Positions 1 through 3,000 of a stretch of DNA of 7,118 bases are shown in pieces (positions within the stretch are counted from its first letter, which is position 1; each line of letters opens with the position of its first letter). Made by a program: the position numbers. The stretch comes from a virus (taxonomy: Duplodnaviria; Heunggongvirae; Uroviricota; Caudoviricetes). The stretch lies in the IMG/VR virus record IMGVR_UViG_2548876695_000012. One strand, 5' to 3'.

Positions 1-3000
1 ACGTGTATTTTTAGTCATCCTGTTTACCTCTTTCTCAGGGAGTTTAGTCTCCAGGATTCCCGGGGCGGTTCAGATAATCTTAGCATTGACCGCCTTTATA
101 TAGAAGCTGTTATTCAAGAAGCATTTTCAAGCAGTGATGTAAGAAAATATTACACTATTAGAAAATCTGGCATGAAATCATCATTGAACCTAACAGAGAT
201 CGAGTATAAAGAAATATTGAAGTCACACCGCAATATAAATGGAATCGATAATTCTGGTTTTACAACTGAAACAAATGAAGCTGTTTTGGCTGCACTATCT
301 GCGGAGGTAAGGGGATGCTAACTCCATACAAAAGAGCTGATGTAGAATTCGAATGGATTAGTGATCTAGAAGAACAGGGTTGTTTTTCAAAAGTATATCT
401 GGCTCATGACAGACACCTAGCTCATGACTTGGTGATTAAAGAAATAGAAAAAAAAGAAAACACTAACCACGACGACTACTTTAATGAAGCAAGGCTTCTC
501 TATAAACATGCACATCCAAATATTGTGCAAGTTCAGTATGCTGCTCAATGTGAGAGCAATATCTATATAGCCATGCCATTTTATCATAATGGTTCGCTAA
601 ACCAATTAATGAAAAAAAATAATCTTACAAGCAGGGAGATAATACGGTATTCCATTCAATTTTTAAGTGGACTTTATCATATACACTCAAAAGGTCTTAT
701 GCATTTTGATATAAAACCTAATAACATTATGATATCAAACAGAAATGAGGCCATGCTATCTGACTTTGGATTATCTCAGTTAGTCAATGAGGAATCGAGA
801 GCTGCGCCTGAGTTTGGATATCATTTTCATGTGCCACCGGAATATTTTTCTTTATCAACAAATGATTATAATTTCACATATGACATATATCAGGCAGGAT
901 TAACCATATATAGAATGTGTGTTGGACATGATAATTTTGAAAGAGAAAGATCTGCATTTAGCACGATTGAACAACTCAGAGAGTCGATAATTAATGGCTG
1001 CTATCCATTAAAAGAGTATCCTCCCCATATACATAAAAAATTAATAACAATAGTGAACAAATGCATTCATGTAGATCCAAATGAAAGATATCAATCCGTA
1101 CTAGATGTACTAAACGATCTCTCAGCTATAAGTGATGGCGTTCTTGACTGGCGTCTACAGATGACGAAACCAACTAACGGCACATGCGAATGGCAAAAAA
1201 AGTCTGGGGACGCTATACTGTCTATAGTTTTTGACGCAGAAAATTCGTCTACTACTGGTTTTCGTTTATACGATGATGGGCGGAAAAGGCGTGCTACGAA
1301 CTTAACAATATCCTCAGGATGTACCCCTACAAAACTGTATAGGTTATTAAAGGATAACTGATCATGAAAAAGCGCGAGGAAGTAAGCAAGCTGCCTCGCA
1401 GACGTGATGCAGCATTAGCGGTTCCCTACAAAAAAGATGAGTTCATAAGTCCTTCTGATGACAAAAAATTTTCAAAGGCGAAAAGTTTTACATCTACATC
1501 TCTAAAAGATAAATACTTTAAAATCTAGCCCGGCCTCAGCGCCGGGTTTTCTTTGCCTCACGTTCGCCCACCTAAAAAACATAACCAATTGTATTTATTG
1601 ATGTAACTCGCTAAACCATGCAGTTATGATCCCTGCCGCATAACCTTCATCAGCCACATTTTCAAAAATAAATTTCCTTATATATCAGAATCATACTTCG
1701 TAGAGTTAATAAATCACCAAAATTCGTACCAATAGTTCTTGATAATGTCGAACTATTGGTTCATTATTATCGTCGTCAGCAGGACGCATTACTCACCAGG
1801 GCGGTGAATATACAACGATTCGAATATGAATCTACGGCGCTGACAAAGCGCAATAACCAAAGTGAACTTTGGGGTGTGGTGAAGGGTTCATGGACGGGAA
1901 TATGTCGCACGTAAAGCGGCGAGGCCTGCGGGACTATTGCCGAATTGAAGTAGGCCGAAACAGGTCGAAATGGGTCTCCCACCTACCACACCACCAAAGT
2001 TCATCAGGAGGTCTATATGACACGCAGAACTCAGTTCAAAGGCAATTCACGTTCTCGTCGTCGTGAGCGTTTAAAGGCAAAGGCATTAGCTAACGGCGTG
2101 CTGGCCCGCGAAGAAGCAATAAGTTCAGAAGTATTACACCGCCCTACTCTAAGTAGAGCGCAGATTCAGGCTAAAGGTACTCACGAAACGCCTGAGCGCA
2201 TAGAAGACGCTAAGCCAATTAAGTTCATGGCACAGGACGTGATCTGGCAACAGAAAGAATACAGACGCAATCTGGAGCGAGCGGCCATTGTGTACGCGAA
2301 TGAGTTTGGACATAAGCAACCAGAAACTGGTGTATGTCTTCCAAACGTAGCTCTTTACGCGGCAGGCTACCGGAAATCAAAACAACTGACAGCAAGATGA
2401 CTTGTGTTGGTCGCCAGAAAATGAAATTAGGCAGCAAACCACTTATTTGAGGTGAGATATGACAAAATCATGGAGCGTACCTTTTCCTGAATCAGAAACT
2501 GAACATGATGGAATGCCTGTTTTCTGGAGATTCCAGGCGACAGTTGAAGAAGATGGGATAAAAATATTCGCACTTCAATATATAGCTTTTCATCAGACAG
2601 AGCATTATGCATGGTTGGTTCCTGCGCATTGGATTGTTAATTTTAAACCAGCACCAAATCAGTGGTTACAGGAATGGAAACAAAAGAGAAATAGATATGC
2701 AATTAAGAAAGTAGCAAAAAATGCAGAAAGATCTTTTGCATTCCCAACGAAGAAACTTGCCATTGAAAGTTTATTGCGCCGGAAGAAATACCATTTAATG
2801 AGAATCAAACAAGATTTGGCTGTTGTATCAACTCTTGTTGATGGGATGAAGAATATTGATACATCAATACCAGATATTGAATATAACTTTGGACACAACC
2901 AAGAAACAGAAAATTGGGTATTTTATTAGTACGAATAAGCACTGTGTATTCATTCCAGCGAGTGAATACACGGAGCAATGTCGCTCGTAACTAAACAGGA

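What the first reader, a model, noticed from the sequence alone, without database searches (positions are those of the whole stretch)
1364..1528. Unannotated 54-aa Lys/Ser/Thr-rich ORF coupled to the kinase: possible substrate or regulator
The ORF starts 2 nt after the kinase stop (TGATCATG) with an AAGGA RBS and is followed immediately by the operon terminator, which is the expected layout for a genuine last gene of an operon. Its C-terminal third (SKAKSFTSTSLKDKY) is a cluster of Ser/Thr/Tyr among lysines, a plausible phospho-acceptor patch. It falls under the usual ORF length cutoff, so it would be missed by default annotation.
Basis: inference. Interest (0 to 1): 0.55.

Follow-up and report, generated by a model that had tools for sequence, protein, structure and literature searches.

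The report
Small partner gene of phage kinase Stk
The 54-codon reading frame after the prophage kinase gene stk is a real, already annotated gene of unknown function. A frame of this size follows every relative of the kinase that I examined, so it is probably a dedicated partner of this phage-defence kinase.

Summary
The sequence description is correct. ORF 1364-1528 starts 2 nt after the stk stop, has an AAGGA 9 nt upstream, and its TAG overlaps a terminator hairpin.

"Unannotated" is wrong. It is 933W gene L0081/ST933Wp21 (NP_049481), phi24B vb_24B_12c, RefSeq WP_000745483, UniProt Q8X4A3 and PHROG 4063. All call it hypothetical.

It is a genuine coding gene:
- dN/dS is 0.03-0.6 in every kinase-linked comparison, including within every subgroup.
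- All indels are in frame.
- In 27 of 27 diverged loci (kinase 38-100% identical) a 50-77 aa ORF starts within 11 nt of the kinase stop, against 1.6 expected by chance.
- 26 of the 27 are 50-59 aa and basic.

The only other shared neighbour is a 145-175 aa RuvC-fold protein, directly upstream in 27 of the 28 loci compared. In this window an IS element truncates it. The unit is therefore a three-gene cassette, often placed behind a prophage repressor gene.

The proposed Ser/Thr acceptor patch is not conserved. An N-terminal Arg-rich motif and a near-C-terminal Tyr-aromatic motif are.

The product has no stable predicted fold. The most likely role is a kinase-bound regulator or substrate of the Stk abortive-infection system, but this is untested. 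Rare Salmonella prophages keep the ORF without the kinase.

The parts
1..72 (-). End of an IS3-family insertion sequence. The transposase start codon is at about 15-17 on the minus strand, and the terminal repeat TGAACCGCCCCGGGAATCC reads as the reverse complement of 54-72. It interrupts the gene upstream of stk and is context only, not part of the cassette.
   Evidence: The window is 100% identical over the 501-base query (window 1200-1700) to E. coli 2011C-4251. In that genome an IS3-family transposase with a programmed frameshift is annotated right here. tblastn shows p153 split into residues 1-72 and about 72-153 around the IS.
73..321 (+). 3' remnant (about residues 72-153) of the RuvC-fold gene p153. 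This is 933W ST933Wp23, phi24B 'res', phrog_3875, and it is the first gene of the cassette. Its stop TAA at 319-321 overlaps the stk start.
   Evidence: tblastn to 933W p153. phrog_3875, E 7.8e-91. AlphaFold2 model of a 93%-identical homologue has pLDDT 91.3, and its best PDB matches are RuvC with TM 0.78-0.81. A p153 homologue directly precedes the kinase in 27 of 28 diverse loci.
315..1361 (+). stk, a Hanks-type (eukaryote-like) protein kinase of 348 aa and the second gene of the cassette.
   Evidence: Pfam Pkinase E 2.2e-46. 100% identical to the 933W Stk protein by tblastn, and the matching 933W CDS is annotated stk. PADLOC kinase models mad6 and PD-T4-6 match at E 1e-37 to 7e-50.
1350..1354 (+). 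Shine-Dalgarno-like AAGGA, 9 nt before the ATG, inside the last codons (L-K-D) of stk.
   Evidence: Read directly from the sequence. AAGG(A) lies 8-14 nt upstream of the small-ORF start in all the sequence-related subgroup loci examined except L068/L112, which have only GAG. In the low-GC loci there is no SD, and the start instead overlaps the kinase stop as ATGA.
1364..1528 (+). The small ORF: 54 aa, net charge +8, third and last gene of the cassette. Synonyms are L0081, ST933Wp21, vb_24B_12c, WP_000745483, Q8X4A3 and phrog_4063.
   Evidence: Annotated in public records. dN/dS 0.18-0.63 between kinase-linked lineages, with in-frame indels only. dN/dS 0.03-0.37 within every subgroup. A counterpart is present in 27 of 27 loci.
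1527..1556 (+). Intrinsic terminator of the pRM (lysogenic) transcript, called tM in 933W. It is homologous to the lambda terminator that follows rexB. The hairpin is 1527-1548 and the T-rich tail follows.
   Evidence: Terminator scan. Annotated tM in 933W. The stem shows compensatory changes among homologues, CCCGGC/GCCGGG to CCCCGC/GCGGGG. Homology to lambda-type prophages begins at the rexB stop codon, which corresponds to the small-ORF stop.

Best explanation
ORF 1364-1528 is a real protein-coding gene. It is the last of three cistrons of a mobile cassette: a RuvC-fold protein (p153), the Hanks-type kinase Stk, and a 50-59 aa basic protein.

In 933W-type Stx prophages the cassette sits at the 3' end of the repressor (pRM-cI) operon. 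It is therefore made in the lysogen and ends at the lambda-type immunity terminator. The small gene is translationally coupled to stk (2-nt gap and SD here, ATGA overlaps in distant relatives), which would keep its product in step with the kinase.

The product has no stable fold of its own. Its conserved features are an Arg-rich N-terminal motif (LPRRRDAALAxPY) and a Tyr-aromatic motif near the C-terminus.

Inferred, not shown: it binds Stk as a dedicated regulatory subunit of the Stk abortive-infection system. It would act either as an inhibitory, pseudosubstrate-like clamp that keeps the kinase silent until an infecting phage such as HK97 triggers it, or as the kinase's first substrate.

My confidence by step:
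- Real gene: about 0.95.
- Functionally tied to the kinase cassette: about 0.85.
- Acts by directly binding or regulating Stk: about 0.5.
- Inhibitor rather than substrate: undecided.
For: **Coding**
- dN/dS is 0.18-0.63 across kinase-linked lineages, with dS up to 1-2. Variable columns by codon position are 27/20/41. All indels are multiples of 3.
- dN/dS is 0.03-0.37 inside every subgroup, including distant low-GC gut contigs.

**Linkage**
- A metagenome scan with a kinase alignment gave loci with 38-100% kinase identity. In 27 of 27 usable loci a 50-77 aa ORF starts -11..+10 nt from the kinase stop, against 1.6 expected.
- 26 of the 27 products are 50-59 aa with net charge +5 to +10. One (L084) is 77 aa and acidic.
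- Only the kinase, p153 and the small ORF are shared among 28 loci. The flanks differ.
- Contexts anchored on the small protein show the trio in Pragia, Serratia, Enterobacter, Klebsiella and Yersinia prophages, often directly after a repressor gene.

**Homology**
- The 933W-like and Tatumella-like small proteins are related (hhalign probability 92%, E 5e-7).

**Expression**
- In phi24B RNA-seq, vb_24B_12c changes 3.6-fold (not significant) on induction. That resembles stk (1.8), cI (1.2) and res (1.2), and contrasts with 43-137-fold for the adjacent pL genes (PMC4651098 supplement).
- stk is driven by pRM in lysogens (PMC3430580).
- Stk has little activity until HK97 infects (PMC3681748; PMC8008677).

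**Structure**
- The AlphaFold2 monomer has pLDDT 68.7 and pTM 0.19, with three short helices. That fits a peptide which folds on a partner.
Against: - There is no direct evidence of translation, of binding, or of any phenotype.
- I could not read the two primary Stk papers. I do not know whether the published exclusion constructs carried this ORF. If stk alone excludes HK97, the small protein is not essential for the effector step.
- Two Salmonella prophage types keep an intact ORF plus terminator with no kinase or p153. Homology there begins at the ATG.
- Beyond the two related subgroups, sequence homology of the small ORFs is not demonstrable. Only position, size and charge are shared.
- The Ala after the Arg cluster, the pseudosubstrate-like feature, is Thr or Lys in the Tatumella-like group.
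Confidence: 0.6

Rival explanations
1. The small protein works on its own and has no connection with the kinase. It would be a generic terminal gene of lambdoid immunity operons, for example a lysogeny or exclusion factor in its own right, which merely tends to travel with the terminator.
For: - Salmonella loci L005-L007 have cI, an unrelated 112-aa gene, then the small ORF. L053 has cI, then the small ORF, then N. Neither has a kinase or p153.
- In those loci the shared DNA is exactly the ORF plus its terminator.
- L005-L007 give the ORF its own strong GGAGG.
Against: - These forms are rare. The kinase-less proteins P0009 and P0008 were seen on 4 and 1 contigs, against at least 1000 contigs for the kinase-linked 933W protein.
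- They are closely related to one kinase-linked lineage, the L052 type.
- The one comparison between them gives dN/dS 0.90, as expected for relaxed constraint, although the counts are tiny.
- Every kinase relative examined has the ORF, including cassettes that are not in immunity operons, such as those next to integrases or tail genes.
Confidence: 0.12
2. One reading: the Ser/Thr cluster in the C-terminal third (SKAKSFTSTS) is the phospho-acceptor site, and the peptide is a Ser/Thr substrate of Stk.
For: - The patch is present at residues 38-46.
- S44 and S46 are invariant among the closest homologues, 54-96% identical.
Against: - In relatives whose kinase is 59-79% identical, S41 is K or N, T43 is T/R/S/F, S44 is S/Q/K, T45 is V/N/G/T, and S46 is S/P.
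- No Ser or Thr column is conserved across the two sequence-related subgroups.
- The conserved residues in that region are hydrophobic or aromatic, plus Tyr51.
- Papers I could read describe Stk as a tyrosine kinase. That points to Y22 or Y51 rather than the Ser/Thr residues.
Confidence: 0.08
3. The ORF is not translated. The region is kept as RNA, either a 3' UTR or terminator element or a 3'-derived small RNA, and the open frame is incidental.
For: - The stretch 1340-1560 folds somewhat better than shuffles (z = -2.39).
- The ORF always ends at or near a terminator.
Against: - No Rfam family matches.
- Most of the folding signal comes from the terminator hairpin itself.
- Substitutions concentrate at third codon positions, dN/dS is well below 1 in the kinase-linked comparisons (0.03-0.63), and all indels are in frame.
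- An open frame of the same length persists where the DNA is no longer alignable, in 27 of 27 loci against 1.6 expected.
Confidence: 0.03
4. The small protein is the effector or adaptor of the RuvC-fold protein p153 rather than of the kinase. It might be a basic nucleic-acid-binding cofactor, with the kinase regulating the pair.
For: - p153 is as tightly linked as the kinase, in 27 of 28 loci.
- The small protein has net charge +5 to +10 in 26 of 27 loci.
- p153 has a confident RuvC fold.
Against: - The small ORF is coupled to the kinase stop, not to p153.
- p153 has an invariant Arg where RuvC has its first catalytic Asp (compared with my own knowledge of the RuvC active site). Nuclease activity is therefore doubtful.
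- In this window p153 is split by an IS while stk and the small ORF remain intact.
Confidence: 0.12

Closest known systems
Stk of phage 933W, a prophage kinase that aborts HK97 infection (Friedman et al. 2011, known to me only through citing papers)
   Same: The kinase encoded at 315-1361 is 100% identical in protein to 933W Stk (tblastn), and the small ORF is the gene directly after it. The system is expressed from pRM in lysogens and is silent until HK97 infects.
   Different: In every source I could read, the system is described as the kinase alone. The flanking p153 and the small ORF have no assigned role. Neither is in PADLOC.
Lambda rexA-rexB, the exclusion cassette in the cI operon
   Same: It occupies the same slot, between the repressor gene and the immunity terminator, and is transcribed from pRM in the lysogen. 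The homology of this window to lambda-type prophages starts exactly at the rexB stop, which corresponds to the small-ORF stop. Both cassettes exclude other phages.
   Different: There is no sequence similarity to RexA or RexB. RexB is a membrane protein, whereas the small ORF product is hydrophilic and basic.
Single-gene kinase defences: PD-T4-6, and Staphylococcus Stk2
   Same: These are Hanks-type kinases used for abortive infection. Stk matches the PD-T4-6 profiles at E 1e-37.
   Different: Those are catalogued as single genes. Here two further genes are invariably attached.
Kinase toxin-antitoxin pairs (HipA-HipB) and pseudosubstrate inhibitors such as PKI of protein kinase A
   Same: In both, a small partner protein is co-expressed with a potentially toxic kinase. 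An Arg cluster followed by Ala and a hydrophobic residue (RRRDAAL) recalls the RRNAI of PKI. That comparison comes from my own knowledge and was not tested.
   Different: The small protein has no HTH and matches no Pfam family. The gene order is reversed relative to hipBA. The Ala is not conserved in the Tatumella-like subgroup. No binding data exist.

Membership tests
PHROG phrog_4063 (phage protein family of unknown function) | Full-length match to the family profile | tested here: met
   E 2.5e-39, 134 bits, residues 1-54 on profile positions 1-54 of 54.
p153-Stk-small three-gene cassette (defined in this analysis) | A Hanks-type kinase gene ends within about 11 nt upstream of the small ORF on the same strand | tested here: met
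   The gap is 2 nt in the window. It is -11..+10 nt in 27 of 27 relatives.
p153-Stk-small three-gene cassette (defined in this analysis) | The small product is 50-59 aa, hydrophilic and net basic | tested here: met
   54 aa with net charge +8. Relatives are 50-59 aa with net charge +5 to +10, apart from one outlier (L084, 77 aa, acidic).
p153-Stk-small three-gene cassette (defined in this analysis) | An intact RuvC-fold p153 gene lies directly upstream of the kinase | tested here: not met
   In this window p153 is cut at about residue 72 by an IS3-family element. It is intact in 933W and in 27 of 28 other loci. This copy of the cassette is therefore damaged upstream, although stk and the small ORF are intact.
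Type II toxin-antitoxin with a kinase toxin (HipBA-like) | The antitoxin has a DNA-binding (HTH) domain and precedes the toxin gene | tested here: not met
   No Pfam or NCBIfam domain was found in the small protein. It follows the kinase. The kinase is Pkinase (PF00069), not HipA.
Pseudosubstrate kinase inhibitors (PKI-like) | A basic recognition motif with a non-phosphorylatable residue at the acceptor position, conserved across the family and occupying the kinase active site | tested here: inconclusive
   RRRDAAL (RRREAAL in the L062 type) is kept in the 933W-like subgroup. The corresponding stretch is KRNAKTM or KRSAQAR in the related subgroup. Binding cannot be tested with these tools.
Catalogued anti-phage defence proteins (PADLOC-DB v2.0) | Match of the small protein to any defence-system profile | tested here: not met
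   The small protein and p153 match no families. The kinase matches the mad6 and PD-T4-6 kinase profiles.
Described RNA families (Rfam 15) | A covariance-model match over 1364-1560 | tested here: not met
   The only Rfam hit in the window is Lambda_thermo at 3108-3166.

The most novel reading that the evidence does not exclude
The RuvC-fold protein, the Stk kinase and the 50-59 aa basic protein form a previously unrecognised three-component defence system, widespread in prophages. It occurs across Enterobacterales and, in diverged form, on low-GC gut-metagenome contigs. In this reading the small protein is the switch: a pseudosubstrate or antitoxin-like clamp on the kinase, released or phosphorylated on its conserved tyrosine when an infecting phage is sensed.
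Probability: 0.3. Interest if true: 0.65.

Novelty: new variant of a known kind. Interest (0 to 1): 0.45.

Why it matters
Stk of 933W is one of the few studied kinase-based abortive-infection systems, and it sits in the Shiga-toxin prophages of E. coli O157:H7. It is treated as a single-gene system.

If its two constant neighbours are functional parts, the question of how the kinase stays silent in the lysogen and is switched on by HK97 becomes testable with simple mutants of a 54-codon gene. Defence-system catalogues, which currently list only the kinase, would also need a three-gene definition.

The gene itself is not a discovery, because it has been annotated as hypothetical since the 933W genome was deposited.

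Tried and rejected
- **Small-protein scan of genome contigs.** It matched 67 stretches but none was confirmed. A kinase scan of the same collection gave only 2 loci.
- **Primary papers.** I could not obtain Tyler & Friedman 2004 or Friedman et al. 2011 by DOI or PMID. Searches for L0081, vb_24B_12c and the protein accessions found nothing relevant. Riley et al. 2012 does not mention the gene.
- **Sequence search of the PDB.** Only a chance hit at E 0.86.
- **AlphaFold2 of the small protein alone.** Low confidence (pLDDT 68.7, pTM 0.19), so I ran no fold search on it.
- **Profile comparisons between distant small-ORF subgroups.** Mostly non-significant. I therefore do not claim homology beyond the 933W-like and Tatumella-like groups.
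- **Activation-loop mimicry.** I asked whether the C-terminal Tyr-aromatic motif mimics the kinase's invariant activation-loop Tyr (GYHFH). Both Tyr residues exist, but the flanking residues do not co-vary convincingly. This stays speculation.
- **Terminator occlusion.** I considered that a stop codon abutting the terminator could let the ribosome modulate termination. I rejected it as a conserved mechanism, because the stop-to-hairpin gap is about 8-30 nt in Pragia, Tatumella and other relatives.
- **Structured RNA.** Not supported.
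Full report
**Where the window comes from**

Bases 1200-1700 are 99.8-100% identical to Shiga-toxin phages of the 933W type (933W, phi24B, Min27, Stx2 converting phage I and others). They are 100% identical to the chromosome of E. coli 2011C-4251. The window's + strand is the minus strand of the 933W record.

In 933W the region reads pM(pRM)-cI-DUF3024 gene-'RuvC-like' 153-aa gene-stk-hypothetical 54-aa gene-terminator tM. It then continues with nutL, N and the pL operon. In the window, N is 2017-2400. The Red genes bet, exo and others follow.

**Checking the observation**

- stk is 315-1361, and the ORF is 1364-1528, so the gap is 2 nt.
- AAGGA is at 1350-1354, 9 nt upstream of the ATG.
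- The stop TAG is at 1526-1528 and overlaps the first two bases of a GC hairpin (1527-1548) followed by a T-rich tail.

The claim that the ORF is unannotated is wrong:
- It is ST933Wp21 (NP_049481.1) in 933W; the old tag L0081 appears under the same match in the original AF125520 record.
- It is vb_24B_12c (ADN68409.1) in phi24B.
- It is WP_000745483.1 in PGAP-annotated E. coli genomes.
- It is UniProt Q8X4A3, seen on at least 1000 contigs.
- It is a full-length member of PHROG phrog_4063.

Every record calls it hypothetical. I found no paper that discusses it.

**Is it a gene?**

Homologues of the protein run from 96% down to 54% identity, in Serratia, Salmonella and Pragia.

At the codon level:
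- Variable columns fall 27/20/41 on codon positions 1/2/3.
- All indels are multiples of three.
- Pairwise dN/dS is 0.18-0.63 among kinase-linked lineages, with dS up to 1-2.

I then scanned metagenome contigs with an alignment of six kinases. This recovered loci whose kinase is 38-100% identical to Stk.
- In all 27 loci where the 3' end of the kinase is present, an ORF of 50-77 aa starts between -11 and +10 nt of the kinase stop, often as an ATGA overlap.
- 26 of the 27 are 50-59 aa.
- Dinucleotide-preserving shuffles of the same downstream DNA predict 1.6 such loci.
- Inside each subgroup, dN/dS is 0.03-0.37. That includes the low-GC human-gut group, whose small ORF shows no detectable sequence similarity to the 933W one.

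The Enterobacterales versions keep an AAGG(A) 8-14 nt upstream, apart from the L068/L112 type, which has only GAG. The low-GC versions have no Shine-Dalgarno and rely on the overlap.

No Rfam family matches the region. Its RNA folding signal (z = -2.4) is largely the terminator. I conclude that the ORF is a real coding gene.

**What it belongs to**

Among 28 diverse loci, the only ORFs of at least 70 aa shared by all or nearly all are two:
- the kinase, present in 28 of 28;
- a 145-175 aa gene directly upstream of it, here called p153, present in 27 of 28. The remaining locus lacks upstream sequence.

The small ORF follows the kinase, as shown in the previous section. The flanks are unrelated.

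p153 is phrog_3875 and is the gene called 'res' in phi24B. A model of a 93%-identical homologue is confident (pLDDT 91.3). Its best PDB matches are RuvC resolvases (TM 0.78-0.81, 12-18% identity). However, an invariant Arg occupies position 7, where, from my own knowledge of RuvC, the first catalytic Asp sits.

The unit is therefore a three-gene cassette: RuvC-fold protein, kinase, small protein.

Contexts looked up from the small-protein side show the same trio in Pragia, Serratia, unnamed Enterobacterales contigs, Enterobacter, Klebsiella and Yersinia. In those loci it commonly lies directly after a prophage repressor gene and otherwise next to integrase, recombinase or tail genes.

Neither p153 nor the small protein is in PADLOC. 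The kinase matches the mad6 and PD-T4-6 kinase profiles.

**Exceptions**

Two Salmonella prophage types carry the small ORF without a kinase or p153:
- One has cI, an unrelated 112-aa gene, then the small ORF (L005-L007).
- The other has cI, the small ORF, then N (L053).

In both, DNA homology to kinase-linked loci begins at the ATG and ends just after the terminator. These forms are rare, seen on 4 and 1 contigs. They are close relatives of one kinase-linked lineage. The single comparison between them gives dN/dS 0.90, on very few substitutions.

I read them as recent losses of the upstream genes. They are nevertheless the main evidence for the rival view that the peptide can act alone.

**Sequence features**

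All but one of the small proteins are hydrophilic, with net charge +5 to +10.

Conservation by group:
- In the 933W-like subgroup, LPRRRDAALAxPY and F42, L47, K50, Y51 and F52 are essentially invariant.
- That subgroup is demonstrably homologous to a Tatumella-like subgroup (hhalign probability 92%, E 5e-7). There the motifs become KRNAKTxAxPY and xGxY(L/F).
- More distant groups share only a basic N-terminus (MKK..., TRExKLY/F) and, in most, a Gly/His-Tyr-aromatic near the C-terminus. Homology there is not statistically supported.

AlphaFold2 gives no stable fold for the monomer (pLDDT 68.7, pTM 0.19, three short helices).

**Expression and biology**

In phi24B RNA-seq, vb_24B_12c changes 3.6-fold (not significant) on prophage induction. 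This resembles stk (1.8), cI (1.2) and res (1.2). The adjacent pL-operon genes rise 43-137-fold (PMC4651098 supplement). The ORF therefore belongs to the lysogenic transcript.

Papers I could read state three things:
- stk is driven by pRM in stable lysogens (PMC3430580).
- Stk is a eukaryote-like tyrosine kinase with little activity in uninfected cells.
- Stk is activated by HK97 infection and causes abortive infection (PMC3681748; PMC8008677).

The terminator after the ORF is the counterpart of the lambda terminator after rexB. Homology to lambda-type prophages starts exactly at the rexB stop. Its stem shows compensatory changes among homologues. The cassette thus occupies the slot that rexAB fills in lambda.

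**Most likely mechanism**

Shown:
- It is a real gene.
- It is obligately syntenic with, and translationally coupled to, a defence kinase.
- It is co-transcribed in the lysogen.
- It has no independent predicted fold.

Inferred: the peptide binds Stk as a dedicated subunit. Two versions fit the data equally well.
- It could be an inhibitory clamp that explains why Stk is silent until infection. The Arg cluster followed by Ala resembles a pseudosubstrate, but that Ala is not conserved in the related subgroup.
- It could be a first substrate or adaptor phosphorylated on a conserved Tyr, Y22 or Y51.

An action through p153 cannot be excluded. I could not read the primary Stk papers, so I do not know whether the ORF was present in the constructs that conferred exclusion.

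**This particular copy**

In the window, an IS3-family element (1-72, transposase on the minus strand) splits p153 at about residue 72. It separates stk and the small ORF from pRM. Expression of both in this strain is therefore uncertain, although both reading frames are intact.

**Verdict**

- The gene is already catalogued as hypothetical.
- What may be new is that it is the constant third component of a widespread RuvC-fold/kinase/small-protein cassette.
- Interest is moderate.

Noticed in passing
window 1-72 (IS end) and 73-321 (gene remnant): An IS3-family insertion sequence interrupts the RuvC-fold gene upstream of stk at about codon 72. This cuts stk and the small ORF off from the repressor promoter pRM in this strain (E. 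coli 2011C-4251 type). From memory, the terminal repeat looks like IS629, but I did not test that.
   Followed up: partly
L001 1661-2122 (933W), with homologues in 27 other loci: The gene annotated as 'RuvC-like Holliday junction resolvase' has a confident RuvC fold. It also has an invariant Arg at the position of RuvC's first catalytic Asp, and it is always paired with the kinase. It may not be a resolvase at all.
   Followed up: partly
window 3108-3166: Rfam Lambda_thermo, the cIII thermoregulator RNA, matches at 88.5 bits, E 3.4e-21. It lies at the start of the cIII/kil region.
   Followed up: no
window 2017-2400: The N antiterminator ORF is intact (127 aa) and 99% identical to 933W N. Even so, PGAP annotates only a 69-nt 'incomplete antitermination protein' pseudogene fragment at its 3' end in the matching RefSeq genome. 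This looks like an annotation inconsistency.
   Followed up: no
window 1526-1601: The terminator and about 55 nt after it are shared at 90-97% identity with hundreds of E. coli lambdoid prophages, including lambda-type ones, where the match begins at the rexB stop codon. This marks a sharp mosaic joint at the stop codon of the small ORF.
   Followed up: partly
window 1690-1770: Inverted repeats (ACCAATAGTTC / GAACTATTGGT) surround a promoter-like site TTGATA-17-CATTAT at 1739-1767. This is where oL/pL should lie, just upstream of nutL (about 1785-1851 by transfer from the 933W annotation).
   Followed up: no
L005 5608-5946 (Salmonella prophage): A 112-aa gene lies between cI and the kinase-less small ORF. 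It has a weak match to Pfam EACC1, 'Effector Associated Constant Component 1' (E 0.0022, below threshold). A terminator-like hairpin follows it, before the small ORF's own GGAGG.
   Followed up: no
L084 1987-2220 (metagenome contig): One distant cassette has a 77-aa, strongly acidic ORF (net charge -14) after the kinase, instead of the usual 50-59 aa basic one.
   Followed up: no
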